From: Mesorhizobium carmichaelinearum
GTDB taxonomy: Bacteria > Cyanobacteriota > Cyanobacteriia > PCC-6307 > Cyanobiaceae
DNA: 64,000 nt
Direction: 5' to 3'
Assembly: GCA_943368365.1 (NCBI GenBank)
Contig: CALRKZ020000001.1
Location: 29,128-93,127, forward strand
Shown here: one piece after another, positions 2,568-19,947 of the stretch
How positions within the stretch are numbered: position 1 is the stretch's first letter
Layout: every line of letters starts with the position of its first letter
Notes under the pieces: model-generated
What the model was told of the DNA's origin: nothing
The model's database searches: none
What the model saw: only the letters and a program-made list of their open reading frames with translations
Position numbers and translations under genes: made by a program

Positions 2568-2849
2568 ATGGCGCTGGAGCAGCTCGAGCGGCTCGTGCAC
2601 GACGCCGAAACCCAGCCGGCCCTGCGGCAGCAGCTGCGGGGCTGCACCACCTGGCAGGCGCTGATCGCCGAGGCCACATTGCTGGGCTACGCAATCACCC
2701 GGGCCGATCTGCAGCAGGCCAGCCAGGAGGAGGCCGCCAGCCGCTTCCTGGAGAACTCGCGGATCGGGGCGGTGAGGGATCTGATGGGAGCGGTGCCGGG
2801 CCGCCGGCCTCAGCTCAGCTGGCGGCGCCTGGCCAGCACCGCCAGGTAG
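2568..2849 (+). CDS. Nif11-domain protein (Nif11-like leader-type helical domain, no obvious GG cleavage site)
   Basis: MALEQLERLVHDAETQPALRQQL...WQALIAEATLLGYAITRADLQ follows the Nif11 N-terminal pattern. ATG at 2568 lies inside ORF 2445..2849. The 3' end overlaps the convergent ORF by 40 nt. Confidence 0.55.
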   Translation: MALEQLERLVHDAETQPALRQQLRGCTTWQALIAEATLLGYAITRADLQQASQEEAASRFLENSRIGAVRDLMGAVPGRRPQLSWRRLASTAR

Positions 2850-7566: not shown

Positions 7567-8958
7567 GTGGGAGGCCGCGATCGGTGTGGTCCCCTAGTGC
7601 CATCCCCTGTGCTCCCACCCGTGCCCAGGTCGCTCGGCGACTGCCTGCAGCTGGCCCAACGCTGCGAACGGCGGCACGACTGGATGGGGGCGGCGGCGGC
7701 CTACGGGCAGGCCCTGCCATTGGCTCCTGGCGATCACCGGCTGCTGGTGAACCAGGGCCATGCCCTCTGGATGGCGGATCTGCCCCAGGCCGCGGAGCGC
7801 TGCTACCGCCGGGCGGTGGCCCTTGCCCCCGGGAGCGCCGAGGCCCGCTGCGGCCTGGGCCATTGCCTGCGGGATCTGAACCGGTTCGAGGAGGCCGACG
7901 CGATGTACGCGAGCGCTGAAGGCTGCCAGGCCCGGCTGGGTCGCAGCCAGGTGCTGATCGGTCTGGAGGCCTACGACGAGGGCTTCGCCGCCGCCGAGGC
8001 CCGCCTGGAGGTGGAGCACTGGGAGCCGTTCCGGCCGGCCCCCTTCTGGGGCGGGACATCGCTTGACGGGCTCGAAGCCTCCCAGGATCTGTGGATCTGG
8101 ACGGAGCAGGGCTTCGGCGACACCTTCCAGTTTCTGCGCTGGGTGCCGGTGCTGGCCGAAGCGCGGGCACGGCAGGCGCTGGAGGGTGGTGGGCGGGCCG
8201 GCGAGCTCCATCTGGTGGTGGAGCCCGCCCTGGTGCGGATCCTGCGCGAGGGGCTGGCCTGGATGGAGAGTCCACCCCAGGTGCTCGCCAAGGACGCCCT
8301 GCGGTTCGAACCGCTCAGCTGCCACGGGCCGCTGATGGGCCTGCCCCACCAGCTGGGAGGTGCCCCCCTGCCCGCGCCGGATGCCGCCCTGCTGCGTTCA
8401 CCGCTCTGGAGCGCGGCGGGTCCGTCGCTGCTGCCGGAGCGCCAGGCGGCCGGTGAGCGGGTGGGGATCGTGTGGGCGTCGGGCCGGAAGCTCGAGGACC
8501 CCTTCGCCGAGCGGGAATACCGTAAGCGCAGCCTGCCGGGGGATGCGCTCTGGCGTCTGGTCGCGGGCCTGCAGGCCGCCGGCGCCGACGTGGTGCCGTT
8601 GCAGTTCGGCGACGATGTGGACCTGGCGGCCGCGCTGGGTTTCGAGCTGGCCTGGCCGCGGCTCGAGCTGGGGGATTTCGCCCAGGTGGCCCGGGTGGTG
8701 GCCCAGCTCGACCTGGTGATCAGCGTGGACACGGCGATGGCCCATCTGCTCGGGGCGCTGGGGGCACCGGGCTGGATCCTGCTGCCGTGGAGCGCGGATC
8801 CCCGCTGGCTGCGGCAGCGCGACGACAGCCCCTGGCATCCCAGTCTGCGGCTGTTTCGCCAACCGTCGGGCGGGGCCTGGGCGGAGGCGATCGACGGCCT
8901 GCTCAGGGCCTTCGACGAGCGGACTGGAGCAGAAGGAGGCTCTCGAGCCAGGCCATGA
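7567..8958 (+). CDS. TPR-repeat protein fused to a glycosyltransferase family 9 (heptosyltransferase-like) domain
   Basis: N-terminal TPR-like repeats (YRRAVALAPGSAEARCGLGHCL). The C-terminal part has GFGDTFQFLRWVP and VISVDTAMAHLLGALGAPGWILLP, typical of GT9-type domains. The GTG start is uncertain. Confidence 0.7.
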   Translation: MGGRDRCGPLVPSPVLPPVPRSLGDCLQLAQRCERRHDWMGAAAAYGQALPLAPGDHRLLVNQGHALWMADLPQAAERCYRRAVALAPGSAEARCGLGHCLRDLNRFEEADAMYASAEGCQARLGRSQVLIGLEAYDEGFAAAEARLEVEHWEPFRPAPFWGGTSLDGLEASQDLWIWTEQGFGDTFQFLRWVPVLAEARARQALEGGGRAGELHLVVEPALVRILREGLAWMESPPQVLAKDALRFEPLSCHGPLMGLPHQLGGAPLPAPDAALLRSPLWSAAGPSLLPERQAAGERVGIVWASGRKLEDPFAEREYRKRSLPGDALWRLVAGLQAAGADVVPLQFGDDVDLAAALGFELAWPRLELGDFAQVARVVAQLDLVISVDTAMAHLLGALGAPGWILLPWSADPRWLRQRDDSPWHPSLRLFRQPSGGAWAEAIDGLLRAFDERTGAEGGSRARP

Positions 8959-10141
8959 GCGCCTGGGTGCAGTGGTCACGGCTGAAGCGCTGCCGCACGG
9001 TGGAGCGGGCCGCCGCGCCGAGGTGGTGGTGGGCGGCGGGGTCGCGCAGCACCGCCGAGAGGGTGGAGGCGATCGCCTCCGGATCCTCGAGCGGCACCAG
9101 CAGTCCGTTCTCGCCGTGGTGGATCACCTCCCGCACCGGCGCGGTGTCGGAGGCCACCACCACGGCCCCGCAGGCCATCGCCTCCAGCAGGCTCCACGAG
9201 AGCACATAGGGATAGGAGAGGTAGGCGTGCACGCTGCTCACTTGCAGCAGCGCGGTGAGCTGGTCGCGGGGCAGCGGGCCCACCGCATGGAAGCGCTCGG
9301 GATCGATGGCCGGGCCGAGCCGCTCGCGCATCGCCCCCGCATAGCCGCCGGGGTGGGGGCTGGGGGGGTCGTAGCTGTGGCCCCCATCGCCCACCACCAC
9401 CACCTGGAGGTTGGGGTGCTCGCGGAACAAGGGCGGCAGGCAACGCATGAAGCGGCAGAAGCCGCGCAGGGGCTCCAGGCTGCGGCTCACGAAGGTGAGC
9501 ACCTGATCGTTCCGGCCGAGCGTCAGGCCAGGGGCCAGCTGGATCCGTCGGCCGGGATCCGGGCGGAGCCGAGCCGTGTCGACGCCCTCGTGGATCACCT
9601 GGATCCGGCCCCTCCAGGGGGCCGGGAAGCTGTCGCGCTGGAAGTGGGTGGGTGTGAGGGCCGCGTCGGCGTCGGCCAGGGCGGCGAGGGCGAGCAGGTT
9701 CTGGCGCGCGCTGCGCCGGAGCCGTTCGGTGCTCACGGCGGGCGCGTCCGGATCGCCGGTTTCCAGAAGCCCGGGGCTGCCGTAGAGCTCTGGATAGGCC
9801 ACCAGCAGGGCGTGGGGCCAGAGCCCGCGCAGATGGAGACCCTCGCCCCAGGCGCTGTGGAACAGCACCAGATCGGGCTCGAAGCCCTCGCTCCTGAGCG
9901 CAACAGCCCGATCGGCCACCCGCTCGGCGCGGATCAGGGCCAGCTCGAGGGCCGGATCGCGCAGGCCGGCGGGCAGCTCGCTGATCGGGGGCATCCGGTA
10001 GGGGTGGTGGTGGCAGCCGGGGGGCACGGCCGGGCCCTCCGCCAGGCCGATGGCGTGCACCTGGTGCCCCCGGGCCTGGAGCGCCGCCGCGGCGCCGCCG
10101 AACTGCGCCGGAAAGCTCTGGTGCACGAACAGGATCTGCAT
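8903..10141 (-). CDS. Glycosyltransferase family 4 (GT-B, group 1)
   Basis: MQILFVHQSFPAQFGG N-terminus. The C-terminal part has SYPYVLSWSLLEAMACGAVVVASDTAPVREVIHHGENGLLV, containing the E-x7-E region. ATG at 10141 lies inside ORF 8903..10183. Confidence 0.8.
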   Translation of the reverse strand: MQILFVHQSFPAQFGGAAAALQARGHQVHAIGLAEGPAVPPGCHHHPYRMPPISELPAGLRDPALELALIRAERVADRAVALRSEGFEPDLVLFHSAWGEGLHLRGLWPHALLVAYPELYGSPGLLETGDPDAPAVSTERLRRSARQNLLALAALADADAALTPTHFQRDSFPAPWRGRIQVIHEGVDTARLRPDPGRRIQLAPGLTLGRNDQVLTFVSRSLEPLRGFCRFMRCLPPLFREHPNLQVVVVGDGGHSYDPPSPHPGGYAGAMRERLGPAIDPERFHAVGPLPRDQLTALLQVSSVHAYLSYPYVLSWSLLEAMACGAVVVASDTAPVREVIHHGENGLLVPLEDPEAIASTLSAVLRDPAAHHHLGAAARSTVRQRFSRDHCTQALMAWLESLLLLQSARRRP

Positions 10142-10221: not shown

Positions 10222-11361
10222 ATGCCCTCCCTCCGTCGCCTGTTCGGACGTGGCAAGGCGAGCGATCAGCCGAGCAGTCCCCACCCGGCTCCCCAGGTGA
10301 ACCGGCTGGTGAGCACCCTCCCCGACGGGGCGGCCGCCCTGCCGGTGGATCTGGTGCCCTGGTCGGTGAAGCGGCTGCAGGTGATCTTCCAGCAGCTGAA
10401 TCAATCACCCAATCAACAAGCGGTGGAGGATGCCCAGGCGGCGCGGAGCTGCTTCACCAGGTTCTGGCTCACGGCGCCGCTCGACTTCCTGGAACTGCTC
10501 TACACCGGGCCGATCGGGCAGGCCTACCGGCTGATGCTCAACGGGGTGCTGCCGGCGCTGCCCCTGAGCCCGGCCGACGAGCGCTGCAAGGCGGCCCTCA
10601 CCCAGCGGCTGCACAAGGCCATCGGCCACCACGAAACCACCAACTTGCTGCTGGCGGTGATGCCCTACTACGACCACAACGCCATGAAGGTGGCCGATCC
10701 GCTGCGGCAGGTGCCGGAATGGCTGCTGGCCGATTATGCCGAGCGTTGCGACCCGAAGCTGAAGGCGATGCTGCTGAAGCGGGCGCCCCAGGCGAACGGG
10801 GCGGCCGGCCCCGCTCCCACCGCCCTGCTTGGCCCTGCCAGCCAGCCGGCCCTGCGGCCGGTGGGAAGCAGCGGGAATGGGGGCGGGACTGCCCAGCTGC
10901 CGCTGCTCTCACAGCGGCGCGGCCCGGAGGGCCTGGCCCTGATCCAGGACAACGAGTTTCTGGGACGGATGAGCGGCCTGATCAATCTCTATGCGATCGA
11001 CCCGAGCGATGCCGAGCTGAAGCGCGAACTGGCGGGGCTGCGGCGGCAGGTGGGCCAGATCTGGCTGGATGTGGACACCCAGCAGCTGCAGACGCTCTAC
11101 CGGGCGCCGTTCGGACAGCTCAGCCAGAACCTGATCGGATCGGGCTTCTCACGGGAGCCACTGGCCGCCGAGGACGAGGCCGCCCGCCGGCAGCTGGGGG
11201 CGATCGTGGGGTCGATGCAGCACCCGAGGGCCCTCAATGCCCTGATGGCGGCCCTGCTCTACTACCCGGCCGGCCGGGTGAATCTGAGCGCCGCCGAGGG
11301 CACGCTGCCCGAGTGGCTGGTGCAGGAGCTCAACCTGCTGCGCAGCCGGGCTCACTCGTGA
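10222..11361 (+). CDS. Hypothetical protein
   Basis: 380 aa from the ATG at 10222. Non-biased composition except for one Gly/Ala/Pro linker. No family recognised. Confidence 0.5.
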   Translation: MPSLRRLFGRGKASDQPSSPHPAPQVNRLVSTLPDGAAALPVDLVPWSVKRLQVIFQQLNQSPNQQAVEDAQAARSCFTRFWLTAPLDFLELLYTGPIGQAYRLMLNGVLPALPLSPADERCKAALTQRLHKAIGHHETTNLLLAVMPYYDHNAMKVADPLRQVPEWLLADYAERCDPKLKAMLLKRAPQANGAAGPAPTALLGPASQPALRPVGSSGNGGGTAQLPLLSQRRGPEGLALIQDNEFLGRMSGLINLYAIDPSDAELKRELAGLRRQVGQIWLDVDTQQLQTLYRAPFGQLSQNLIGSGFSREPLAAEDEAARRQLGAIVGSMQHPRALNALMAALLYYPAGRVNLSAAEGTLPEWLVQELNLLRSRAHS

Positions 11362-11642
11362 AACTCGCGCCACACGAGCCAGTAGGCCAGGTAGCCCACG
11401 GGAGGGGCTAGGAGCAGGGGTAGGAGGGCCAGCACGCCGATGCTGGCCGAGCTCCAGAGCATCAGGCCCACGCACACGGCGAGATAGGCCAGCAGCAGGG
11501 CCGCCACCAGCACGGGCCGGCTGGAGAGGCGCTGGCGCCAGCGCAGCGCCAGGCGCTCCCGGCGCACGCGGCTGAGCTGGCTCCGCGGCACGAAGGCCGA
11601 CCAGTCGGCGGGCGAGCCGGGCCCGGGGCGGCGGCGGGCCAT
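11352..11642 (-). CDS. Small membrane protein (96 aa, two predicted TM helices)
   Basis: Hydrophobic stretches VLVAALLLAYLAVCVGLMLW and IGVLALLPLLLAPPVGYLAYWLVW. Its ATG shares one base with the HlyD stop (TGATG). Confidence 0.5.
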   Translation of the reverse strand: MARRRPGPGSPADWSAFVPRSQLSRVRRERLALRWRQRLSSRPVLVAALLLAYLAVCVGLMLWSSASIGVLALLPLLLAPPVGYLAYWLVWREFHE

Positions 11643-13123
11643 CAGCGCAGCCGCTCGAGGTCGCGGCGGCGGTCGTTGAGGAAGCCGGTGAACAGGCTCA
11701 GGACGGTGCGCTGGCGGAGCTGGATGTCGGCGGTGAGGGCCATGCCGGGCTTGAGGGGAATCGGCCGGGTGCTGCCCTTGAGGCTCTGGCTCTGGAGCTG
11801 GAGCACGGCCGGGTAGAAGAGACCGGTGGACTCGGTGCGCAGGGTTTCGGCCATCTCCTCGGTGGTGAGCGCATCGGAGCCGATCCGCTCCACGCGGGCC
11901 TTGATGCTGCCGAACTCGCTGGAGGGGAAGGTGTCGATCGAGATCTCGGCCTTCTGGCCGGGCGAGAGGAAGCCGATGGCGTTGTTGGGGATGAACACCT
12001 TGGCCTCGAGGGCATCGCCCGGCACCACGCGCAGCAGGGGCCTGGTGGCCTCCACCACCGAGCCGGGCGACACGTCGATGTCGAACACCGAGCCGGCGCT
12101 CGGGGCGGTGAGCACGCTGTATTGAAGCTGCACCTTGGCCAGGCGGATCTGGCCGTCGAGTTCGGAGATCTGGCGCAGGTTGGCCTCAATGCGGCCGCGC
12201 AGATCGGCTCCGGGAGCCACTTCCGCATTGCGCAGGGAAGCCCGCAGGCCGGCGGCGGTGCGCTCCTCGGTGGCCAGTTCGGCCCGCAGCTGATCGGCGC
12301 GGTTGCGGCTCTCGAGCGCCTGCACCTCGCTCACGGCGCCGGTGCTGGCCAGGCCGGCGTAGCGGGCGGCGATGTTGGTGGCGGTGGCCAGGGTGGTGAT
12401 CAGCCCCTGGATCTTGGCCTCGCTGGCGCGGAGCTGCTCCTCGGCCACCAGGCGCCGGGTGCGCAGATCCTCCGCCTGGTTGCTGAGCTGGAGCTGCTGG
12501 TTGGCGGAGAGGCCGCTGGCCTGGCCATCCCCCAGGGAGGCGGCGAGGATCTGGTTCTCGTTGAGCAGGCGGGCGCGCACGGCCTCGGCGGAGGTGAGGC
12601 GGCTGCGGGCTTCGCGCAGATCGAAGCGCAGCACCACCTGCCCCTGGCGCACCGTTTCGCCATCCTTCACCAGCACGGCCTCGATCACCCCCGGCACCGG
12701 GGCCTGGATCGTTTTCACCTTGCTGCCGGGCTGGAGCTTGCCCTGCACGGCAATCGTTTCACCGAGCGGTGCCACCACGGCCCAGATGCCGAGGGCACCG
12801 AGGCCCCCGAGGGCCGTCCACACGATCAGGCTGGAGGCGCGGCCGCTCTTGCGCAGCATCACCGGCTGGTTGAACTGCCAGTCGGCGGCGGGGGCCAGGG
12901 CACCACCGGGGGCCAAGCCGGTGGTGGCCGGTGCGAGGAAGGGATGCGTGGCGGCCGGATCGGCGGCAGGCGCTTCGGCGCCTTCACCGAGCAGGTCGAC
13001 CCGCACCGGCACCACCCGCTGATCGGGCTGGCGGCGACGGGAGCGGCCGCGGGGCGAACGCAACCAGCCCACGGCCCGCTCGTAGAGGTCGATCAGGAAA
13101 AAGGAAGGATCAGAGTTGGTCAT
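11642..13123 (-). CDS. HlyD-family membrane fusion / secretion protein
   Basis: N-terminal TM segment, a lipoyl-like hairpin (IQAPVPGVIEAVLVKDGETVRQGQVVLRFD), long coiled coils, and a C-terminal beta-barrel region. ATG at 13123 forms an ATGA overlap with the ABC gene stop. Confidence 0.85.
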   Translation of the reverse strand: MTNSDPSFFLIDLYERAVGWLRSPRGRSRRRQPDQRVVPVRVDLLGEGAEAPAADPAATHPFLAPATTGLAPGGALAPAADWQFNQPVMLRKSGRASSLIVWTALGGLGALGIWAVVAPLGETIAVQGKLQPGSKVKTIQAPVPGVIEAVLVKDGETVRQGQVVLRFDLREARSRLTSAEAVRARLLNENQILAASLGDGQASGLSANQQLQLSNQAEDLRTRRLVAEEQLRASEAKIQGLITTLATATNIAARYAGLASTGAVSEVQALESRNRADQLRAELATEERTAAGLRASLRNAEVAPGADLRGRIEANLRQISELDGQIRLAKVQLQYSVLTAPSAGSVFDIDVSPGSVVEATRPLLRVVPGDALEAKVFIPNNAIGFLSPGQKAEISIDTFPSSEFGSIKARVERIGSDALTTEEMAETLRTESTGLFYPAVLQLQSQSLKGSTRPIPLKPGMALTADIQLRQRTVLSLFTGFLNDRRRDLERLR

Positions 13124-16100
13124 GCGAGGCCTCCTTCCTGGCTCTGGCTGGTGTGCAGGGCGTAGTACCAGCCCTGGCGCTGCATCAGTTCGCGGTGGGT
13201 GCCGGTTTCCATGATCGCGCCGCGGTCCATCAGCACGATGGAGTCGGCGGGCTGCACGGTGCTGAGGCGATGGGTGATGAAGAACACGGTGCGACCCCGG
13301 AAGGCCTCGAACAGGTTGATGCACACCTGCCGTTCGGTGCGGGCATCGAGGGCACTGGTGGCCTCGTCGAGGATGAGCAGGCGGGGGTTCTGGAGCACGG
13401 CGCGGGCCAGGGCGAGGCGCTGGCGCTGGCCGCCGGAGAGACCGGCGCCCCGTTCCCCCACATCGGAGTTGTAGCCCTTGGGAAGGTCCATGATGAAGTC
13501 GTGGGCGCAGGCGATGCGGGCGGCGCGGATCATCTCCTCGGCGGTGGCATCGGGCTTCACCAGCAGCAGGTTCTCGCGCACGGTGCCATCGAAGAGCACG
13601 CTGTCTTGCGGAACCACACCGATCTGGCGGCGCAGGGAATAGAGCTCCACCTTGTTGATGTCGAGCCCGTCGATCAGCACCTTGCCCTCGAGGGGGCGGT
13701 AGAAGCGGGGCAGCTGCTTGAGCAGGGTGCTCTTGCCGCTGCCGGATCCCCCCACCATGCCCACGAAGGAACCGGCGGGCACCTCCAGATTCACGCCCTG
13801 CAGGATGAGGGGCCCATCGTCGGCGAAGCGGAAGCTCACGTTCTGGAACTCCACCCGCCCGATCAGGGGGGGCATGGGGATGTTGAGGGCTTCGGCCTCG
13901 CTCTGCTCGGTGGTGCGATCCACCACGTCGGCCACGAGCTGGATGGAGGCGGTGCTCTGCTGGAACTGCTGCCAGGTGGTGGTGAGCTGCACGAGCGGGC
14001 GGGTGATGTAGCCGCTGAGGATGCGGAAGGCGATGAAGGCGCCGAAGGTGAGCTGGTTCTGGATCAGGAGATACACACCCACGCCGGTGACAACCAGGCC
14101 ACTCAGATCATTGATGAACCCGGCCAGGTTGGTGATCGATTCCCTGGTGATCTTGAGCTTGAAGTCTTCACCGATGAAGCGGGAATAGCGATTCTGGAAC
14201 TCCCAGCGGGTCTTGAGTTCGGCGTTCTGGGATTTGATTGTCTGGATGCCGGTGATCGATTCGTTGAGGTAGGAATGGGTTTTAACCGAGGCGCCCATGC
14301 TGCGCTGGATCTGGGAGCGCACCAGCGGATTGCTCACCAGGGTGAGGGCCAGCATGAGCGGCAGGGTGGCCAGGGTGGCCAGGGTGAGGGGAACGCTGAT
14401 CGCGAAGAGGATGAACAGGTAGAGGAAGCTGAAGGCCAGATCCACCACGGTGGTGAGGCTGGTGCCGAGCAGGAAATCGCGCAGCCGATCGAGCTGTCCG
14501 AAGTAGAACATCACCTGGCCCACGGGCCGGCTGTCGAAGAAGCTCTGGGGCAGCCGCACCAGCTGATCGAGGATCGTGCTCTTGGTGGCCTGATCCACCC
14601 GGTTGGCGGTGTCGGTGAAGATGTAGCTGCGCAGGGTCTTGAGAACCGCGCCGGCCAGGGCCGCCAGCAGCAGCACGAAGGAGATGCTGAGCAGGGCGTT
14701 GAAGTTACGGCTTCTCACCACCTGATCGAGCAGCACCTGCATGCCCAGCGGGGTGGCCAGGGCCAGCAGGTTGATCACGAAGGAGAGCGCCAGCACCTCC
14801 ACCAGCTGGCGGCGGTGTTCGCGCAGGAAGGGGAGGAACCAGCCCCAGCTGAAGCGGCTCTCCTTGGCGTCGGGCTTGCGCTGCACCAGCAGCAGCTCCA
14901 CCGGCTCGCCGCCTTCGCCGAGCTGCTCGGCGGGCAGCAGCAGGGGGCCGAGCTCGGGTTCGAGCAGGCGCAGGCGACCGTCGTCGTGCACGCCTTCGAG
15001 GATGGCGAAGTGGCCCTGGGCCTGGAGCAGGGCGGGGGTGGTGGCGCGGGCGAGGCGATCGGCGGGGAGCTTGGTGAGCACCACCCGCAGGCCGAGGGCA
15101 TCGAGGATCTGGCCGAGGTTGATCAGGTTGAGGCTGGCCTGGCGCTCGAGCACGGCCTGCACCTGATCGCGCAGGGCATCGCGGTTGAGCGGCACGCCGA
15201 AGTAGGCGGCGAGGGCCATGCAGATGGCGATCGGGCCATCGCGGGGGCCGGTGGCCCGCTGCAGCCGAAGCTCGGCCTGGCGGTGGGCTTCGGTGCGGGG
15301 GGGCGGTTCGGGGGCGGAGAGGGCGTAGCCGCTGGAGGCGGGGGCGGCCGGCAGGGGCCTGGCCGGCGGGAGAGGGGTGAGGCCGGCATCGCCCACCTGG
15401 AGGGTGGGCGCGGCTTCGGGGCCCGGCGCCGGAATGGCGCCGAGGGGGGGGAGGCCCACCAGGCGCAGCCACGGGCTTCCGGGCGGCGGGGGCTCCGGGG
15501 CGGCGTCGCCGAGCCAGGCCTGGCCGAGCGGCCCACCGCTGCTGTGGAACCAGCTGAGTTCGGGGGCGAGGCCGAGGGGGGTGGCCGGCCCCGGCGGCAG
15601 GCTGCGCACCCGGGCGGGCTGGCGGATCGCCGGCCAGTGGCGCAGGGTGTTCGACCAGGCGGGGTTCCCGCCGGCCAGCTCCACCAGCAGGCGGTGCAGT
15701 TCGCTGGCGGGAAGGGTGGTCTCGAACCACGCACGGAAATCGTCGTGGTGGGGGAGCAGATCGAGAAAGAGGGTGGCGGGCAGGAAGAGCGCCTCGGCCT
15801 CGGCCGAGACGCGCACGTGCTCACAGGGCGAACCGCGCAACAGCCCGCACCAGCCCAGGCAGGCGCCGGGCTCGAGCCGGTCGATCGTGGCCAGGTCGCC
15901 GCGCAGGGGATCGGTGGCCAGCACCCGCAGGGTTCCGGCGCGCAGCAGCCACACCCCCTCGGGCGGCTGCTCGGGGCGGAGGATCGTCTGGCCGAGGCGG
16001 TAGCGGCGGGATTCGAGCAACGGTTCGAGGCCGGCAGCCACCGCGGCGGGAAGCCGGTCGAAGGGCCGGAAGCCGGTGAGCAGTCTCTGCTCGCGGCGAT

Positions 16101-16128
16101 CGGGCGGGCTGGCGGGGGAGGCGCTCAT
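13120..16128 (-). CDS. ABC exporter with an N-terminal cyclic-nucleotide-binding-like domain and a C39 peptidase-like domain
   Basis: 1002 aa. It has a cNMP-like beta-roll (RAGTLRVLATD...RLEPGACLGWCGLL) and a C39-like block (PIAICMALAAYFGVPLN...GHFAILEGV...LLEPELG). The transmembrane domain has six helices. The NBD has Walker A GGSGSGKST, signature LSGGQRQR and Walker B LLILDEATSALD. Confidence 0.9.
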   Translation of the reverse strand: MSASPASPPDRREQRLLTGFRPFDRLPAAVAAGLEPLLESRRYRLGQTILRPEQPPEGVWLLRAGTLRVLATDPLRGDLATIDRLEPGACLGWCGLLRGSPCEHVRVSAEAEALFLPATLFLDLLPHHDDFRAWFETTLPASELHRLLVELAGGNPAWSNTLRHWPAIRQPARVRSLPPGPATPLGLAPELSWFHSSGGPLGQAWLGDAAPEPPPPGSPWLRLVGLPPLGAIPAPGPEAAPTLQVGDAGLTPLPPARPLPAAPASSGYALSAPEPPPRTEAHRQAELRLQRATGPRDGPIAICMALAAYFGVPLNRDALRDQVQAVLERQASLNLINLGQILDALGLRVVLTKLPADRLARATTPALLQAQGHFAILEGVHDDGRLRLLEPELGPLLLPAEQLGEGGEPVELLLVQRKPDAKESRFSWGWFLPFLREHRRQLVEVLALSFVINLLALATPLGMQVLLDQVVRSRNFNALLSISFVLLLAALAGAVLKTLRSYIFTDTANRVDQATKSTILDQLVRLPQSFFDSRPVGQVMFYFGQLDRLRDFLLGTSLTTVVDLAFSFLYLFILFAISVPLTLATLATLPLMLALTLVSNPLVRSQIQRSMGASVKTHSYLNESITGIQTIKSQNAELKTRWEFQNRYSRFIGEDFKLKITRESITNLAGFINDLSGLVVTGVGVYLLIQNQLTFGAFIAFRILSGYITRPLVQLTTTWQQFQQSTASIQLVADVVDRTTEQSEAEALNIPMPPLIGRVEFQNVSFRFADDGPLILQGVNLEVPAGSFVGMVGGSGSGKSTLLKQLPRFYRPLEGKVLIDGLDINKVELYSLRRQIGVVPQDSVLFDGTVRENLLLVKPDATAEEMIRAARIACAHDFIMDLPKGYNSDVGERGAGLSGGQRQRLALARAVLQNPRLLILDEATSALDARTERQVCINLFEAFRGRTVFFITHRLSTVQPADSIVLMDRGAIMETGTHRELMQRQGWYYALHTSQSQEGGLA

Positions 16129-16913
16129 GCTTGGGCGGCAGGGGGCAGAGGCATCGGCTCCTCGCCGGCCATCAGCAGGCTCACCTGCTCCTTGAACCAG
16201 ATCTGGAAGAGTTCGTCCACCATCCGGGCGCGCATGGCGTCATCGAGTTGAGCAGGGAAACGCTCTTCCAGCCGCACCAACAGCCACAGTCCGCCCAGTT
16301 CGAAGGGCGGCCAGAGCTGGCCGGGGGTGCCCACCCGCAGCCGTTCGGCGAGGGCCGGATGGCCGGCACTGAGGGCGATCGGACCGATCAGGCCGCGGGT
16401 GATCCGTTCCTTGCCCTCGGCGTGCTCCGCCACCAGGGCGGCGAACTCGGCCTCCCCCTCCCGAAGCTGGCAATAGAGCTCCTCGGCCTGGTCGCGGTCG
16501 GAGACGCGCAGCAGGGAATAGGTGACCTGATCGAGATCGAGCTTGCGATCGAGGAAACGGATCTCCGCCTCGTGGGCATAGCGGCTCTGGCTGTAGCGCC
16601 GCAGCCGCTCCGACTTGGTGGCGAAGTAGCGCAGGTCGGCGGCCGACCAGCCCTTGCGGGCGAGCCACTGGGCCATGGCCTCCTTGCTGTCGACGCCCTC
16701 CCCTTCGAGATAGGCGCGCATCAGGGCGTTCTCCTCATCGGCGGTGAGGCTGACGCTGCTCACCACCCGATCGAGCACCACGGCCTGGGCGAGGGCGAGG
16801 GCCACGCCCTGCTGGCGCAGCAGGCGGTTGGTGTCGTGCACCGAGAGCAGGGGCTTGCCCGGGGCGATGGCGATCAGCGCCGGAGGGATCACACCGGAGA
16901 GGGGGGTGCTCAT
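16125..16913 (-). CDS. Parvulin/SurA-like peptidyl-prolyl isomerase family protein
   Basis: The C-terminal half (FAALVAEHAEGKERITRGLIGPI...GQLWPPFELGGLWLLVRLEER) resembles a PpiC-type rotamase. ATGA overlaps at both ends. Confidence 0.6.
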   Translation of the reverse strand: MSTPLSGVIPPALIAIAPGKPLLSVHDTNRLLRQQGVALALAQAVVLDRVVSSVSLTADEENALMRAYLEGEGVDSKEAMAQWLARKGWSAADLRYFATKSERLRRYSQSRYAHEAEIRFLDRKLDLDQVTYSLLRVSDRDQAEELYCQLREGEAEFAALVAEHAEGKERITRGLIGPIALSAGHPALAERLRVGTPGQLWPPFELGGLWLLVRLEERFPAQLDDAMRARMVDELFQIWFKEQVSLLMAGEEPMPLPPAAQA

Positions 16914-19789
16914 CGCCGGCAGGGCAGATCGAGGCGGGCCAGGGCGGTGGCCATCAGCGCGAGGCCGCGTTCACGCGAGAAATGGGCACGGGCATGCTGC
17001 AGGGCCGCATCGCTGGTGCGGCTCCAGAGCTCGTCGTCGGTGAGGAGGGCGGCGGTGGCCTCGCACCAGGCCTGGGGGTGGGGGGCGATGAACACCTCCA
17101 CGCCATGGCGAAGCCCGGTGGCTTCGGCGGCCACCGGGCTGAGCACCTGGGGAACACCGTGGGCCAGGGCGGCGATCACCTTGCCCTTGATGCCCGCCCC
17201 GGCCCGCAGCGGGGCGATGAACACCCGGTGGCGCTCGTAGACCACGGCCGCATCGTCCACCCAGCCATGCACGCGAACGCCCGGAACGGCCTGCCAAGCC
17301 TCGTGCAGCTCGGGGCCCAGGCCGCTGCCGTAGAGGTGGAACTCGAGCTCGGGCAAGCGTTCCCGCAACGTGGGCCACACATCGGCCAGGAACGATTCCA
17401 CGGCGTCCCGGTTGGGAGGGTGCTGATAGCTACCGAGAAAGGTGATGCCGTGGCGGCCGGCGAGCGGGGCGGGCTGGTCGACGGTGTCGACCACCCAGGG
17501 GCAGAGGGCGGTGGCGGCCTGGCCGAGGCTCTCGGCGGCGATCACGGCCTGCTCGATCTCGCTGTAGGTGAGGGTGAGGTCGACCGCGGCGATGGCCTCG
17601 AGCTCCTGGCGGCGGGTTTCGCGCACGGCGGCCAGGGCCTGCTCGGCCAGCTCGCCGCTGAGCCCGGCGCTCTGCAGCTGCCGCAGCTCGCGCAGGTAGT
17701 GGAGATCGGCATTGCAGAAGATCAGCCGGGCCTGGGGCGCGTGCTCGCGCAGCAGGGGCAGGCTGTCGCGCACGGTGGTGTAACGCGTGAGATAGATGAG
17801 ATCAAACTCGGCGCCCCGCTCGCGGAGGAAGCGCTCGAGCGAGAGCACGAAGGGGGCATGCACCGCCTCGATCCCCCGGCGTTGCAGCTCCTCGGTGTAG
17901 GAGCCGAGCCAGGCGAGGTTGGCGGGCAGGAAGGTGATCTTGTAGCCCAGCGACTGGATCAGATCCATCTCCACCAGGGCGGCATGGCTGCCGGCGTCGC
18001 GGTCGGGGCGGGGCGTGCCGTGGTCGAGGAAGAGGGCGCGGCCCAGGATGCCGCGGTCCTTGATGCGCTCGGCGGCCTCGAAACTCGGGTCACGCTCCCC
18101 CTCAAAGGCGTGCTGCCACTTGCGCTGGAACTGGGGGGCGTGCAGGGTCTGGAAGCGCTTGAGCCCTTCGCTGGTGGCGGGATCGGCATCGGTGCCGCAG
18201 CTGAGCCCCTCGTGGTGGATCACCCGCGAGAGCGGGGCATAGCGCACCACCAGGCCGGCTTCTCGCACCTTGAAGGCCAGGTCGGTGTCCTCGTAGTAGG
18301 CCGGCGAGAACTCGGGGCTGAACCCCCCCACCCGGTTCCAGAGCTCGCGGCGGATGGCCAGGGCGGCGCCGCTCACGTAATCCACCTGGCGGGTGTAGGC
18401 CACGCCGGGATGGTGCGGGTTGCGCCCACGGCCGTAGTTCCAGGGTTCGCCGTTGCCCCACACGATGCCGCCGGCCTCCTGGAGCCGCCCATCCGGATAG
18501 ATGAGCTGGGAGCCGGTCATGCCGGTGTCCGGCCAGCGCTCGAAGGGGTGGAGCAGCTCCTCGAGCCAGCGGCAGCAGGGCTCGGTGTCGTTGTTGAGCA
18601 GCACCACAAACGTGCCCCGGGCGGCGGCCACGCCGCTGTGGCAGGCCTGGTTGAAGCCGCGGGCGTAGTCGTGGCGGATCACCGGCACCCCCGGGGCCTC
18701 GCGGGCCAGGGCTTCGGCGGTGCCATCGGAGGAGCCGTCGTCCACCACGATCAGCTCGAAGGGCACGCGGGTGGGGGCGTAGGCCAGGGCCGCCAGGCAG
18801 CGCCGCGTGACGGCGTAGTTGTTGTGCACCGGCACCACCACCGACACGAGCGGCTCGGAGCTGAGGGGCAGCCGGATCGGCTGGCGGGGCACCGGCGTGC
18901 CGTGGGGCCCGGCCTCCTCGCCGGCGCCGGCGCTGGCGGGCGGCTGGATCGGGCCGCTGAGCAGCCGCTGCAGCAGCGGCAGGTCGGGCGGCAGGGGGGT
19001 GCCGTGGCTGTCGGCCCAGTGGAGCCAGGTGGTGAGGCTGCGCAGGTGCTCGCGGGCCAGGGGCTGGAGCTGGTCGGGGAAGGGGGCCTGGCCGTGGGCG
19101 TGCAGGGAAGGCCAGGGGGTGAGCTGGAACGGCGTGAACTCGAGGCTTTCCGCCCGCTGCTGGCCCTCGGCGTCGTGGAGGGCGAAGTGGTGGGGCCGGC
19201 CGTCGCAGCTTTCGGGCGGGAGCGGCCAGTGCAGCTGCCCGTCGGGGCCGGCGCCGAGCCGGCCGATGGGACGGCCATCGAGGCGCAGTTCCAGCTCCTG
19301 GCCGGGAGGCGCCCAGCCGATCACGAAGGGGCCGTGCAGCGCATCGAGCCGCACGCCGCTGCCGCCGGCCCGGCTGCAGAGCTGCTCCAGCAGGCGATAG
19401 CGCTCGTCATCGAGGCGCAAGGGGCTGCCGGGGAGCTCCACCGGGGGATCGGCACGCACGACGGCGCGCACCACCAGGCCCGTGGAGCGGGGCGGCAGGG
19501 CGATGCCGCTGCCGCCGAGGAAGGAGAAGCCGCACACCGGGTTGAGGCCCTGGCGGTCGAGATCGGGCCGGGGCAGGGCGGCGCTCACCTCGCCCAGGGG
19601 CCAGGTGGCCCCCGGGCTGAGCAGGTCTTCCACCTCGAGCAGCACGGTGAGCGGGCCCGACGCGGCCGATCCGGCCAGCGGGGAGGCCCAGCCCTCCAGG
19701 GCGCCCTCGCCGCTGAAGCCCTCGAAGGCCCCGATCAGCGAACCGCGCACGAGGGTCTGCAGGGCCGAAGGCTGGTTGAACGGCACCAC
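16910..19789 (-). CDS. Large bifunctional glycosyltransferase (GT2 domain plus C-terminal GT4/GT-B domain)
   Basis: GT2 core VSVVVPVHNNYAVTRRCLAAL...IVVDDGSSDGT...LLNNDTE. The C-terminal GT-B block is FLGSYQHPPNRDAV...FIAPLRAGAGIKGKVIAALAHGVPQV. The start is uncertain: GTG at 19789/19786 is chosen to avoid overlap with the divergent gene, and the maximal ORF reaches 19909. Confidence 0.8.
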   Translation of the reverse strand: MVPFNQPSALQTLVRGSLIGAFEGFSGEGALEGWASPLAGSAASGPLTVLLEVEDLLSPGATWPLGEVSAALPRPDLDRQGLNPVCGFSFLGGSGIALPPRSTGLVVRAVVRADPPVELPGSPLRLDDERYRLLEQLCSRAGGSGVRLDALHGPFVIGWAPPGQELELRLDGRPIGRLGAGPDGQLHWPLPPESCDGRPHHFALHDAEGQQRAESLEFTPFQLTPWPSLHAHGQAPFPDQLQPLAREHLRSLTTWLHWADSHGTPLPPDLPLLQRLLSGPIQPPASAGAGEEAGPHGTPVPRQPIRLPLSSEPLVSVVVPVHNNYAVTRRCLAALAYAPTRVPFELIVVDDGSSDGTAEALAREAPGVPVIRHDYARGFNQACHSGVAAARGTFVVLLNNDTEPCCRWLEELLHPFERWPDTGMTGSQLIYPDGRLQEAGGIVWGNGEPWNYGRGRNPHHPGVAYTRQVDYVSGAALAIRRELWNRVGGFSPEFSPAYYEDTDLAFKVREAGLVVRYAPLSRVIHHEGLSCGTDADPATSEGLKRFQTLHAPQFQRKWQHAFEGERDPSFEAAERIKDRGILGRALFLDHGTPRPDRDAGSHAALVEMDLIQSLGYKITFLPANLAWLGSYTEELQRRGIEAVHAPFVLSLERFLRERGAEFDLIYLTRYTTVRDSLPLLREHAPQARLIFCNADLHYLRELRQLQSAGLSGELAEQALAAVRETRRQELEAIAAVDLTLTYSEIEQAVIAAESLGQAATALCPWVVDTVDQPAPLAGRHGITFLGSYQHPPNRDAVESFLADVWPTLRERLPELEFHLYGSGLGPELHEAWQAVPGVRVHGWVDDAAVVYERHRVFIAPLRAGAGIKGKVIAALAHGVPQVLSPVAAEATGLRHGVEVFIAPHPQAWCEATAALLTDDELWSRTSDAALQHARAHFSRERGLALMATALARLDLPCRR

Positions 19790-19947
19790 TCCACCGCCAG
19801 GGCGATGCCCCGGAAAATAGGCCAGGTGGCACTGGCACGTCGGTGACAACGCCAGCGGGATGGTCGGCGGAGAATGCGGGCGTCGATCGCGAGGCCGCCG
19901 TGCGCCCACTGGAGCCGCCCCTGGAGGCCACGGAACCCTCGGCCGCG

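What the first reader, a model, noticed from the sequence alone, without database searches (positions are those of the whole stretch)
11352..19789. Five-gene overlap-coupled operon joining a GT2-GT4 fusion to a parvulin-like protein and a C39/cNMP ABC-HlyD exporter, with no substrate gene in view
On the minus strand the genes are chained by start/stop overlaps: tcat at 16910..16913, 16125..16128 and 13120..13123, and TGATG at 11640..11644. The transcription order is the large glycosyltransferase, the SurA/parvulin-like protein, the ABC exporter with cNMP-like and C39-like domains, the HlyD adaptor, and a 96 aa two-TM protein. Tight coupling of a glycosyltransferase to a peptidase-type ABC exporter recalls glycocin-type logic, where a GT2 enzyme works with a C39 exporter. 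It could also reflect export of a glycosylated surface protein. As I recall, published transposon work on swimming motility in marine Synechococcus implicated ABC-transporter and glycosyltransferase clusters in surface-protein localisation. No small double-glycine precursor, RTX-type substrate or TolC-like gene is visible within the operon. The foldase is a prolyl isomerase rather than a thiol-disulfide enzyme.
Basis: partly seen in the sequence, partly recalled or inferred. Interest (0 to 1): 0.7.

Follow-up and report, generated by a model that had tools for sequence, protein, structure and literature searches.

The report
Cyanobacterial protein-secretion operon with glycosyltransferase
This is a real, widely conserved operon of small freshwater and marine cyanobacteria that most likely pushes an unknown surface protein out of the cell through a hemolysin-type pump, helped by a private chaperone and tied to sugar-adding enzymes; it is a new variant of a known secretion system rather than a new kind of machine.

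Summary
Five minus-strand genes (11352-19789) are chained by ATGA/TGATG overlaps, and those overlaps recur in about 45 related loci. The window comes from a 70% GC picocyanobacterium (Cyanobium/Synechococcus 5.2).

The glycocin reading fails:
- The ABC exporter's C39 domain has no catalytic Cys in any of 62 homologues.
- Its closest single-chain solved relative is E. coli HlyB.

The "parvulin" models confidently as a PrsA/SurA-type chaperone. Its catalytic residues are replaced (Ser/Gly/Trp) and it has no signal peptide, so it is cytoplasmic.

Parvulin-like gene, cNMP/C39-like ABC and HlyD form a cassette found across cyanobacteria: 64 of 69 evaluable loci. Paralogous cassettes sit beside RTX proteins or giant ORFs. 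The GT2-GT4 fusion is a lineage-specific add-on, present in 33 of 45 orthologous loci.

My best reading is a HlyB-type type I secretion system for an uncleaved surface protein, with a dedicated cytoplasmic chaperone, coupled to glycosylation of the cargo or of its anchoring glycan.

The cargo is unproven. About 4 kb beyond the operon, a 170-aa acidic Cys-free ORF (6678-7190) fills the slot where 19 related loci carry a 255-aa RTX-like Gly/Asp-repeat protein.

Verdict: new variant of a known kind, moderate interest.

The parts
19790..19899 (.). 110-bp divergent intergenic region between the GT start (19789, minus) and the start of the conserved divergent 662-aa gene. This is the presumed promoter region of the operon.
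   Evidence: The sigma-70 consensus scan finds no promoter-like site in 11000-20200 and no internal terminator above chance. This is uninformative in a 70% GC cyanobacterium.
16910..19789 (-). Soluble 959-aa bifunctional glycosyltransferase. It has an unknown N-terminal 300 aa, a GT2 (GT-A) domain at about aa 315-526, an unknown middle region, and a GT4-type (GT-B C-terminal) domain at about aa 781-939.
   Evidence: Pfam and NCBIfam. No TM segment. The nearest solved sequences for the GT2 domain are chondroitin polymerase K4CP and polypeptide GalNAc-transferases. It lies directly upstream of the parvulin-like gene, with a 4-bp overlap, in 33 of 45 orthologous loci.
16125..16913 (-). 262-aa PrsA/SurA-like chaperone. 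It is a helical N/C domain with an inserted parvulin domain, lacks the parvulin catalytic residues, and is cytoplasmic.
   Evidence: Rotamase_2 32 bits. AlphaFold model pLDDT 91.8. The top Foldseek hits are PrsA, SurA, PEB4 and HP0175. Pin1 C113/H157/H59 align to near-invariant Gly/Trp/Ser. No TM segment or signal peptide.
13120..16128 (-). 1002-aa HlyB-type ABC exporter: cNMP-binding domain, linker, degenerate C39-like domain, 6-TM exporter domain and NBD.
   Evidence: best family TIGR01846, HlyB type, 604.8 bits. Its best single-chain match among solved structures (5th overall, behind two-stretch eukaryotic ABCB transporters) is E. coli HlyB 7sgr, with the alignment reaching into the C39-like domain.
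15751..16008 (-). cNMP-binding-like regulatory domain of the ABC protein (aa 41-126).
   Evidence: PF00027, 37.4 bits. The same N-terminal domain in Nostoc HetC binds ppGpp in vitro (PMC10986499).
14869..15258 (-). C39-like domain (aa ~291-420) without a catalytic Cys. It is the presumed cargo-docking domain.
   Evidence: PF03412, 20.7 bits. A profile of 18 homologues aligns to the PCAT1 peptidase domain, with Cys21 falling on Gly of 'RDGPIA'. That column is never Cys in 62 homologues.
11642..13123 (-). 493-aa HlyD-family membrane fusion protein with a ~95-aa cytoplasmic N-terminal extension and one TM segment.
   Evidence: TIGR01843, 189 bits, and HlyD_3. TM at about aa 98-126.
11352..11642 (-). 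96-aa two-TM protein with a basic N-terminus and an invariant C-terminal YWLxWxEFH motif. It is a conserved fourth component of the cassette.
   Evidence: It is present after HlyD in freshwater and marine loci.
10222..11361 (+). Convergent 379-aa all-alpha protein of unknown function. It lies next to the cassette in 45 of 50 orthologous loci, whatever the gene order.
   Evidence: The family is known only from picocyanobacteria. The model has pLDDT 83 and two helical lobes, with no significant fold match.
8903..10141 (-). GT4 glycosyltransferase (412 aa), a syntenic neighbour in freshwater and marine relatives.
   Evidence: The same position is occupied in WH 5701, RS9902 and a marine contig.
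7684..8958 (+). 424-aa protein with N-terminal TPR repeats and a weak GT9 (heptosyltransferase-like) C-terminal match. It is a syntenic neighbour and a possible protein glycosyltransferase.
   Evidence: GT9 19.2 bits, below the cut-off; RfaC E=3e-4. A syntenic TPR gene of similar size follows the GT4 gene in WH 5701 (L082/L083) and one marine contig (L084); RS9902 (L087) has no such gene after its GT4 gene.
6678..7190 (-). 170-aa acidic (pI 4.1), Cys-free ORF with no signal peptide. It is a positional candidate for the cargo.
   Evidence: The same slot and strand hold a 255-aa RTX-like Gly/Asp-repeat protein in 19 related loci (a 20th, marine-type locus L034 has a weak match elsewhere). No detectable homology links the two families (hhalign probability 9.7%).
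19900..21888 (+). Divergently transcribed 662-aa protein of unknown function. It co-occurs with the GT fusion in related loci.
   Evidence: 30-66% identity, at the same divergent position in loci that carry the GT fusion.

Best explanation
The five genes form one translationally coupled operon. It encodes the inner-membrane part of a HlyB-type type I secretion system (T1SS) together with its accessory proteins.

**Proposed mechanism**
- The ABC protein (cNMP-like sensor domain, non-catalytic C39-like docking domain, exporter core) and the HlyD adaptor would join an unlinked TolC-like outer-membrane channel.
- Together they would export an unfolded protein that is not cleaved at a double-glycine site.
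- The 262-aa protein is a cytoplasmic PrsA/SurA-type chaperone built on a catalytically dead parvulin fold. I infer that it keeps the cargo secretion-competent and hands it to the C39-like domain.
- The 96-aa two-TM protein is a conserved membrane subunit of unknown role.
- The soluble GT2-GT4 fusion is a lineage-specific first gene of the operon. I infer that it builds a short glycan, either on the cargo in the cytoplasm before export (favoured) or as the surface glycan that the cargo binds to.

**Shown versus inferred**
- Shown: the gene structure, the conservation, the domain identities, the loss of catalytic residues, and the linkage of paralogous cassettes to RTX proteins.
- Inferred: that the cargo is a protein (about 0.7), that the chaperone acts on it, that the GT acts on the cargo (about 0.4), and the identity of the cargo. 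The 170-aa acidic ORF at 6678-7190 is only a positional candidate (about 0.25).
For: **Operon**
- The overlaps are confirmed and conserved in about 45 loci.
- Independent gene calls give the same products and junctions.

**Exporter type**
- The best family is TIGR01846, HlyB type, at 604.8 bits.
- The best single-chain solved relative is E. coli HlyB, aligned from its C39-like domain onward.
- The catalytic Cys is absent in all 62 homologues and the His is not conserved.
- HlyD is adjacent.

**Chaperone**
- The model is confident, with PrsA/SurA as top structural matches.
- The catalytic residues are replaced by conserved Ser/Gly/Trp.
- There is no signal peptide.

**Cassette**
- The parvulin-like gene is adjacent to this type of ABC gene in 64 of 69 evaluable loci across cyanobacteria.

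**Protein cargo**
- Related cassettes lie next to RTX proteins (L066, L075, L077, L080; L064).
- Others lie next to a giant ORF of at least 3290 aa (L071, L073) or a TolC-like OEP gene (L085).
- 19 orthologous loci carry an acidic, Cys-free, 255-aa Gly/Asp-repeat protein in the same slot. A 20th, marine-type locus (L034) has a weak match about 4.3 kb from the parvulin-like gene. The profile also hits an RTX protein weakly.

**Literature**
- Sll1180/Sll1181/Slr1270 export the S-layer protein Sll1951 in Synechocystis (Agarwal 2018, as cited in PMC11594277).
- Cyanobacterial RTX surface proteins such as SwmA and oscillin are glycosylated (PMC3034196).
- Degenerate C39-like domains bind substrate without cleaving it (PMC10986499).

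**Glycosylation context**
- The GT is soluble.
- Neighbours include GT4, a TPR protein with a weak GT9-like match, TPR-GT2 and rhamnose-pathway genes.
Against: - No RTX protein or other recognisable T1SS substrate lies in the operon, and none is recognisable in the parts of the 64-kb window that were checked.
- The 170-aa ORF shows no detectable homology to the 255-aa repeat family. It is conserved only in the two closest relatives.
- No TolC-like gene was seen among the window proteins scanned; not every ORF was scanned.
- PrsA and SurA normally act outside the cytoplasm, so a cytoplasmic role is an inference.
- A two-fold GT fusion is typical of glycan polymerases. HlyB/MsbA-like ABC exporters also move glycans, for example ChvA/NdvA (TIGR01192 scores 262 bits here).
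- Picocyanobacteria reportedly lack many canonical polysaccharide export genes (PMC4594306). A glycan substrate is therefore not excluded.
- The GT fusion is absent from 12 of 45 orthologous loci, so it is not essential to the cassette.
Confidence: 0.6

Rival explanations
1. This is a protein T1SS as above, but the GT2-GT4 fusion does not touch the cargo. It helps build a cell-surface polysaccharide or LPS-like glycan to which the secreted protein attaches. The genes are co-transcribed only so that anchor and cargo are made together. The parallel is Caulobacter, where the S-layer T1SS genes lie beside the O-antigen genes needed for S-layer attachment (from my own knowledge of that system).
For: - The operon sits at the edge of a ~40-kb surface-glycan island with many GTs and the dTDP-rhamnose pathway.
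- In loci without this GT, another large GT (GT47/GT7-type, ~1400 aa) lies upstream of the cassette, on the opposite strand.
- Marine loci have GDP-mannose genes and capsule-type genes nearby.
- A bifunctional GT-A plus GT-B enzyme resembles glycan polymerases such as K4CP.
Against: - Translational coupling of the GT stop to the chaperone start is conserved in 33 loci. That suggests stoichiometric co-production rather than loose co-regulation.
- The GT has no membrane segment.
- Cyanobacterial T1SS surface proteins are themselves glycosylated.
Confidence: 0.25
2. The ABC-HlyD pair exports a glycan or glycolipid made by the GT fusion at the cytoplasmic face, as an unusual ABC-transporter-dependent polysaccharide pathway. 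The C39-like and parvulin-like proteins would be recruited for a non-protein role or for enzyme assembly.
For: - The operon logic is GT first, then exporter.
- HlyB/MsbA-fold exporters for glycans exist (ChvA TIGR01192 262 bits, HepA family 318 bits).
- Picocyanobacteria lack obvious Wzx/KpsM candidates (PMC4594306).
- No cargo gene lies in the operon.
Against: - Known glycan exporters of this fold lack a C39-like domain. Here that domain is retained with invariant residues in all homologues.
- A polypeptide-chaperone fold is coupled to the ABC gene phylum-wide, even where no GT is present.
- Paralogous cassettes are linked to RTX proteins, giant proteins and TolC.
- The solved-structure and family matches are best for HlyB.
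Confidence: 0.15
3. This is a glycocin- or RiPP-type system. A small double-glycine or Nif11-leader peptide, encoded elsewhere, is glycosylated by the GT, cleaved by the C39 domain and exported.
For: - GT2 plus a C39-family ABC plus HlyD resembles such clusters.
- The parvulin-like protein has a weak match to TIGR04500, 'putative peptide maturation system protein' (43.7 bits against a cut-off of 180).
- A 93-aa Nif11-domain ORF lies at 2568-2849.
Against: - The catalytic Cys is absent in all homologues and the His is variable.
- NHLP and bacteriocin exporter families score far below the HlyB type (397 and 328 bits against 605).
- The Nif11 ORF scores just under its cut-off, lacks the Gly-Gly end of the leader model, and sits among housekeeping genes 8.5 kb away on the other strand.
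- There are no thiol-disulfide enzymes and no small Cys-rich ORF.
Confidence: 0.04

Closest known systems
E. coli HlyB-HlyD-TolC type I secretion system (the class of T1SS whose ABC protein has a C39-like domain)
   Same: - ABC exporter with an N-terminal C39-like domain that lacks the catalytic Cys.
- Adjacent HlyD-family adaptor with a cytoplasmic N-terminal extension.
- It is the best family match and the best single-chain solved-structure match.
   Different: - An extra N-terminal cNMP-binding-like domain.
- A co-translated cytoplasmic PrsA-like chaperone.
- A conserved 96-aa two-TM protein.
- A bifunctional GT in the operon.
- No RTX substrate or acyltransferase gene in the operon, and no TolC gene nearby.
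Synechocystis PCC 6803 Sll1180 (ABC), Sll1181 (HlyD) and Slr1270 (TolC), which export the S-layer protein Sll1951
   Same: It is a cyanobacterial HlyB/HlyD-type T1SS for a glycosylated RTX surface protein (literature). This is the most plausible functional analogue.
   Different: I could not obtain the Sll1180 sequence. Whether it shares the cNMP plus C39-like architecture, or has a parvulin-like neighbour, was not tested. No S-layer gene was identified here.
HetC of Nostoc PCC 7120 (cNMP-binding, C39 peptidase and ABC exporter)
   Same: The four-part domain order is the same. The cNMP-like domain of HetC binds ppGpp in vitro, which suggests nucleotide-regulated export (PMC10986499).
   Different: HetC is reported to have active Cys347/His420 and to be a peptidase-containing exporter. 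The window protein and its orthologues lack the Cys. No HlyD or parvulin-like partner is mentioned for HetC: those terms do not occur in that paper.
PrsA / SurA / PEB4 family of parvulin-containing chaperones
   Same: The predicted two-domain fold is the same: a helical N/C chaperone domain with an inserted parvulin domain. As in SurA domain 1 and PpiD (my own knowledge), the parvulin active site is not canonical.
   Different: Those proteins work outside the cytoplasmic membrane and carry signal peptides or lipid anchors. This one has neither, and it is encoded inside a T1SS operon.
Glycocin clusters (SunS/SunT type) and peptidase-containing ABC transporters such as PCAT1
   Same: A GT2-family enzyme lies next to a C39-family ABC exporter. 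The C39-like domain aligns weakly to the PCAT1 peptidase domain (E=0.009).
   Different: There is no catalytic Cys, no double-glycine precursor and no disulfide-forming enzymes. The exporter core is much closer to HlyB than to PCAT1 (450 against 308 bits).

Membership tests
HlyB-type T1SS (ABC protein with a non-catalytic C39-like domain) | Half-size ABC exporter (6-TM domain plus NBD) of the HlyB subfamily | tested here: met
   TIGR01846 at 604.8 bits is the best family, although below its cut-off of 725. E. coli HlyB 7sgr is the best single-chain solved match, at 450 bits.
HlyB-type T1SS (ABC protein with a non-catalytic C39-like domain) | N-terminal C39-like domain that lacks the catalytic Cys | tested here: met
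   PF03412, 20.7 bits. The profile alignment to PCAT1 puts Cys21 on Gly. The column is never Cys in 62 homologues.
HlyB-type T1SS (ABC protein with a non-catalytic C39-like domain) | Adjacent HlyD-family membrane fusion protein | tested here: met
   TIGR01843, 189 bits, with a 4-bp overlap with the ABC stop codon.
HlyB-type T1SS (ABC protein with a non-catalytic C39-like domain) | TolC-like outer-membrane partner | tested here: inconclusive
   No OEP-domain protein was found among the window proteins scanned; not every ORF in the window was scanned. TolC genes are often unlinked. A paralogous cassette has one next door (L085). The rest of the genome is not available.
HlyB-type T1SS (ABC protein with a non-catalytic C39-like domain) | Substrate with RTX or Gly-Asp repeats and an uncleaved C-terminal signal | tested here: inconclusive
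   None is present in the operon or window. RTX or RTX-like proteins lie next to related cassettes. The window has only an acidic Cys-free 170-aa positional candidate.
Peptidase-containing ABC transporters (PCAT, bacteriocin and NHLP exporters) | Catalytic Cys and His in the C39 domain | tested here: not met
   The Cys position is Gly. The His is present in the window protein but is Q/R/S/L in orthologues.
Peptidase-containing ABC transporters (PCAT, bacteriocin and NHLP exporters) | Double-glycine-leader precursor gene(s) in the neighbourhood | tested here: not met
   None is adjacent. The Nif11-domain ORF at 2568-2849 scores 31.9 against a cut-off of 32.3, matches leader-model positions 1-63 of 68, and has no GG end.
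Glycocin biosynthetic clusters | Small Cys-containing precursor, SunS-type GT, active C39 exporter and thiol-disulfide oxidoreductases | tested here: not met
   Only a GT2 domain (inside a 959-aa fusion) is present. The exporter lacks the catalytic Cys. No precursor or oxidoreductase genes are present.
Parvulin-type peptidyl-prolyl isomerases | Parvulin fold | tested here: met
   Rotamase_2 32.2 bits and Rotamase 22.4 bits. The model superposes on parvulin domains at 1.5-2.2 A.
Parvulin-type peptidyl-prolyl isomerases | Catalytic His / Cys (or Asp) / His residues (Pin1 H59, C113, H157) | tested here: not met
   Pin1 C113 and H157 align to near-invariant Gly167 and Trp210 in the profile alignment; Ser133 for H59 was placed by eye, as the printed alignment does not reach that residue. 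Enzyme activity itself is not testable here.
PrsA/SurA-type chaperones | Helical N/C chaperone domain with an inserted parvulin domain | tested here: met
   pLDDT 91.8. The top Foldseek hits are PrsA, SurA, PEB4 and HP0175, with E-values down to 4e-9. The profile hits PrsA 6vj6 over residues 13-213.
PrsA/SurA-type chaperones | Extracytoplasmic location (signal peptide or lipoprotein anchor) | tested here: not met
   There is no hydrophobic N-terminal segment. The N-termini of homologues are variable and uncharged.
HetC-like cNMP-C39-ABC exporters of cyanobacteria | cNMP-binding-like domain N-terminal to the C39 domain and ABC core | tested here: met
   PF00027, 37.4 bits, at aa 41-126. The architecture matches that described for HetC.
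HetC-like cNMP-C39-ABC exporters of cyanobacteria | Active peptidase residues (HetC C347/H420) | tested here: not met
   The HetC sequence itself was not available for direct alignment.
ABC-transporter-dependent polysaccharide export (Wzm/Wzt, KpsMT) | ABC-2 type transporter with separate permease and ATPase, plus PCP and OPX partners | tested here: not met
   The exporter is a fused HlyB/MsbA-fold half transporter with an HlyD adaptor. An OPX-like gene is seen only near marine relatives.

The most novel reading that the evidence does not exclude
The cassette is a dedicated glycoprotein secretion line. A cytoplasmic, catalytically dead PrsA-like chaperone holds an unfolded surface protein while soluble glycosyltransferases decorate it. 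These would be the GT2-GT4 fusion and the neighbouring enzymes (the GT4 and the TPR protein with a weak GT9-like match). The chaperone then passes the cargo to the C39-like domain of a nucleotide-gated (cNMP/ppGpp-type) HlyB-like exporter. This would be the first dedicated cytoplasmic chaperone and the first hard-wired glycosylation step described for a type I secretion system. It would be conserved across cyanobacteria and placed at the border of the hypervariable surface-glycan island of picocyanobacteria.
Probability: 0.25. Interest if true: 0.75.

Novelty: new variant of a known kind. Interest (0 to 1): 0.5.

Why it matters
Picocyanobacteria are among the most abundant phototrophs in lakes and oceans. 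Their cell surface decides who can infect or eat them.

If this operon secretes a glycosylated surface protein, three things follow:
- It gives a concrete genetic handle on how such proteins are glycosylated, even though T1SS cargo never sees the periplasm.
- It explains why a secretion system is fixed at the edge of the variable glycosylation island.
- It adds a new accessory, a private cytoplasmic chaperone of the PrsA/SurA fold, to a secretion system that textbooks describe as having three components.

The cNMP-like domain also suggests that export is gated by a nucleotide signal, as proposed for HetC.

Tried and rejected
- **C39-like region versus solved structures.** A single-sequence search found nothing meaningful. 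A profile of homologues and a longer query were needed.
- **Unknown neighbours.** Pfam and NCBIfam gave no family for the 379-aa convergent gene, the 662-aa divergent gene, the 278- and 566-aa genes, the GT N-terminal 300 aa, the 170-aa acidic ORF or the 255-aa repeat family.
- **The 379-aa protein.** Structure prediction plus Foldseek gave a confident all-helical model but no significant match.
- **The 170-aa family versus the 255-aa repeat family.** hhalign gave probability 9.7%, so homology is rejected.
- **Promoter and terminator scan** was uninformative. The **Rfam scan** of the whole window found nothing.
- **Marine Synechococcus motility work.** The McCarren and Brahamsha papers are not held, and SYNW0192-0195 occur in no searchable paper. 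Orthology to those genes is therefore left open.
- **A18-46.1 homologue.** The locus tag of its 379-aa homologue (SynA18461_00455) hints that the orthologous marine cassette may not be the SYNW0193 cluster. This rests on my memory of gene numbering, so I do not use it.
- **Extending the view.** Going 10 kb to the left showed only housekeeping genes. The look-up to the right failed.
- **Source organism.** The exact-sequence look-up gave no name.

Full report
**What is there**

The window is 70% G+C outside a lower-GC stretch at 28-54 kb. Homologues of its proteins come from freshwater and euryhaline picocyanobacteria: Synechococcus/Cyanobium subcluster 5.2 types, including Synechococcus sp. WH 5701.

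Five ORFs lie on the minus strand:

| Coordinates | Length | Product |
|---|---|---|
| 16910-19789 | 959 aa | glycosyltransferase fusion |
| 16125-16913 | 262 aa | parvulin-like protein |
| 13120-16128 | 1002 aa | ABC exporter |
| 11642-13123 | 493 aa | HlyD adaptor |
| 11352-11642 | 96 aa | small membrane protein |

An independent gene call on a public contig of the same organism gives identical products and junctions.

**Domain content**
- GT: a GT2 domain at about aa 315-526 and a GT4-type C-terminal domain at about aa 781-939. There is no membrane segment.
- Parvulin-like protein: weak PpiC-type rotamase matches.
- ABC protein: cNMP-binding domain (aa 41-126), a weak C39 match (aa 300-403, 20.7 bits), then a 6-TM exporter domain and NBD.
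- HlyD adaptor: one TM segment after a ~95-aa cytoplasmic extension.
- Small protein: very basic N-terminus and two hydrophobic spans.

**Is it more than chance?**

A degenerate-pattern scan of one genome per species found relatives of the parvulin-like protein in at least 592 species, and the best 80 loci were fetched.

- In 64 of 69 loci with enough flanking DNA, a cNMP/C39-like ABC gene is adjacent on the same strand, usually followed by HlyD. These include Moorena, Symploca, Hormoscilla, Microcoleaceae and Elainellaceae as well as picocyanobacteria.
- Fifty loci carry close orthologues (ABC core at least 60% identical).
  - In 33 of the 45 with room upstream, the GT2-GT4 fusion lies directly upstream of the parvulin-like gene.
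  - The -4 or -1 overlaps at GT/parvulin, parvulin/ABC, ABC/HlyD and HlyD/small protein recur almost everywhere.
- In marine-type loci the order is ABC, HlyD, small protein, parvulin-like gene.
- The small protein keeps an invariant YWLxWxEFH C-terminus from freshwater to marine strains.

The operon is therefore real and under selection. Its core is the four-gene cassette. The GT fusion is a lineage-specific first gene.

**The exporter is HlyB-like, not a peptidase exporter**
- The best family is the HlyB-type T1SS permease/ATPase (TIGR01846, 604.8 bits). NHLP and bacteriocin peptidase exporters score 397 and 328 bits.
- The best single-chain solved relative is E. coli HlyB (450 bits). The alignment runs from HlyB residue 41, inside its C39-like domain, to the C-terminus. 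PCAT1 aligns only from the membrane domain.
- A profile of 18 homologous N-terminal regions aligns to the PCAT1 peptidase domain at E=0.009. It places the catalytic Cys21 on the Gly of 'RDGPIA'.
- In 62 orthologues and paralogues that column is G, A, I, V, S, E or T, never Cys. The His position is H here but Q/R/S/L in orthologues.
- As the HetC paper summarises, such degenerate C39-like domains cannot cleave but are needed to bind the substrate (PMC10986499).
- This removes the basis for a glycocin or double-glycine-peptide reading.

**The 'prolyl isomerase' is a chaperone-type protein**
- With 24 homologues the AlphaFold model is confident: pLDDT 91.8.
- Its best structural matches are PrsA from several Gram-positive bacteria, SurA, PEB4/Cj1289 and HP0175. 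All share a helical N/C chaperone domain with an inserted parvulin domain.
- In the profile alignment to Pin1, C113 aligns with a near-invariant Gly and H157 with a near-invariant Trp. By inspection, H59 corresponds to a near-invariant Ser.
- The protein has no signal peptide or membrane anchor.
- It is best described as a cytoplasmic PrsA/SurA-like pseudo-isomerase.

**Evidence that such cassettes move proteins**

More distant cassettes with the same three genes lie beside likely T1SS substrates:
- RTX proteins with 7-15 HemolysinCabind matches in L066, L075, L077 and L080.
- An RTX protein directly after HlyD in a marine Synechococcus (L064).
- An ORF of at least 3290 aa that ends about 120 bp before the parvulin-like gene (L071, L073).
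- An acidic Cys-free ORF upstream, plus a TolC-like OEP gene downstream (L085).

Picocyanobacteria thus have at least two paralogous cassettes. The window carries the one I call type A.

The literature agrees with this pattern. In Synechocystis the HlyB/HlyD homologues Sll1180/Sll1181, with the TolC homologue Slr1270, export the S-layer protein. Cyanobacterial RTX surface proteins such as SwmA and oscillin are glycoproteins.

**A cargo lead outside the stated coordinates**

In 19 type-A loci from one Cyanobium clade, the same slot is occupied. The slot lies after the convergent 379-aa gene, the GT4 gene and the TPR gene, on the operon strand, about 8.6-9.8 kb from the parvulin-like start. A 20th locus, the marine-type L034, has a weak match about 4.3 kb from that start. 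The slot holds a ~255-aa protein with these properties:
- It is acidic (pI 4.1) and has no Cys.
- It is rich in Ser/Thr and in Gly/Asp/Asn.
- It has GxG(D/N)(D/N) motifs every 19-20 residues.
- It ends in a conserved ...DSITFG.

Its profile also weakly hits the L064 RTX protein (E=1e-4). GT-less type-A loci have a related 281-aa protein on the other strand.

In the window, and in its two closest relatives, the slot holds a 170-aa acidic Cys-free ORF at 6678-7190 that ends in DDLFPGG. It shows no detectable homology to the 255-aa family (hhalign probability 9.7%). Other relatives, including WH 5701, have nothing comparable there. This ORF is a positional candidate only.

**Context**

The cassette is flanked by glycan genes:
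- On one side: the conserved unknown 379-aa gene, a GT4, a TPR protein with a weak GT9-like match, and then ClpB.
- On the other side: a conserved unknown 662-aa gene, a GT14 Branch-like enzyme, a methyltransferase, TPR-GT2, GT4, GT61 and a TPR protein with a DXD sugar-binding GT domain, plus RmlA/RmlD/RmlC.

Where the GT2-GT4 fusion is missing, a ~1400-aa GT47/GT7-type enzyme lies upstream of the cassette on the opposite strand. Marine relatives have GDP-mannose genes, another GT2-GT4 fusion and capsule-type genes nearby.

The secretion cassette is therefore anchored at the border of the variable surface-glycan island.

**Interpretation**

The best-supported mechanism is a HlyB-type T1SS for an uncleaved protein with a dedicated cytoplasmic chaperone. 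It is co-translated in this lineage with a soluble bifunctional glycosyltransferase.

T1SS cargo passes from the cytoplasm to the outside without a periplasmic stage. Any glycosylation of such cargo should therefore happen in the cytoplasm, which fits soluble GTs and TPR-bearing GTs next to the exporter. This step is inference.

The main alternatives are:
- The GT builds a separate anchoring glycan.
- The exporter moves a glycan. A two-fold GT fusion looks like a polymerase, HlyB/MsbA-fold glycan exporters exist, and picocyanobacteria lack many canonical polysaccharide exporters.

Against glycan export stand the retained C39-like domain, the polypeptide-chaperone fold, and the RTX linkage of the paralogues.

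**Novelty**

All the parts belong to known families. Cyanobacterial cNMP-C39-ABC exporters (HetC) and HlyB/HlyD S-layer exporters are published.

I did not find three features described in the searchable literature:
- the phylum-wide pairing of this exporter with a cytoplasmic PrsA-like pseudo-parvulin;
- the conserved 96-aa membrane protein;
- the translational coupling to a bifunctional GT.

I rate it a new variant of a known kind, of moderate interest.

Noticed in passing
window 6678-7190 (-): A 170-aa acidic (pI 4.1, 24% Asp+Glu), Cys-free ORF with no signal peptide and lower GC (0.58). It is weakly conserved only in the two closest relatives. It sits in the syntenic slot where related genomes carry an RTX-like repeat protein, so it is a possible T1SS cargo.
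   Followed up: partly
L030 19447-20214 (+), and the same slot in 18 other loci (e.g. L018, L020, L036, L053); weak match elsewhere in L034: An unannotated family of ~255-aa acidic, Cys-free proteins with GxG(D/N)(D/N) motifs every 19-20 residues and a conserved C-terminal ...DSITFG. It has no Pfam or NCBIfam match. It is syntenic with the secretion cassette in one Cyanobium clade and weakly related to an RTX protein.
   Followed up: partly
window 2568-2849 (+): A 93-aa Nif11-domain ORF (Pfam 40.6 bits; TIGR03798 31.9 against a cut-off of 32.3, without the Gly-Gly end). It lies next to the plastocyanin and cytochrome c6 genes. It is probably unrelated to the exporter, which lacks a catalytic Cys.
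   Followed up: partly
L071 3-9878 and L073 3-9872 (+): A giant ORF (at least 3290 aa, cut by the locus end, no Pfam match) ends about 120 bp before the parvulin-like gene of a paralogous cassette in a Cyanobium MAG and in a marine Synechococcus single-cell genome. It is reminiscent of giant surface proteins such as SwmB.
   Followed up: no
window 28000-54000: GC drops from about 0.70 to 0.47-0.60. The stretch holds further glycosyltransferases (GT4, GT61, a TPR protein with a DXD sugar-binding GT domain), a DUF1800/DUF1501 pair (37.7-40 kb) and the dTDP-rhamnose genes. It looks like a horizontally variable surface-glycan island.
   Followed up: partly
window 21311-21398 (+): ARAGORN calls a tRNA-Leu(CAG) inside the 662-aa ORF. 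The Rfam gathering-threshold scan finds no tRNA there, so it is probably a false positive of a high-GC sequence.
   Followed up: partly
window 10222-11361 (+): The conserved 379-aa neighbour has two similar helical lobes, each containing an L-x-x-LY-x-x-P-x-GQ motif. This suggests an internal duplication. It has no fold match in the PDB, and the family is restricted to picocyanobacteria.
   Followed up: partly
L082 7150-10004 versus L083 7149-10004: In the draft WH 5701 assembly the GT2-GT4 fusion is called as two genes (785 and 166 aa). A complete genome carrying an identical parvulin-like protein (CP114977) has one 951-aa gene. A frameshift or sequencing error in the draft is likely.
   Followed up: no
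L015, L031, L043, L046: Several MAG records are titled Chitinophaga pinensis, Rhizobium sp., Candidatus Sulfopaludibacter and Bordetella parapertussis. The loci they carry are clearly picocyanobacterial, so the organism names are wrong.
   Followed up: no
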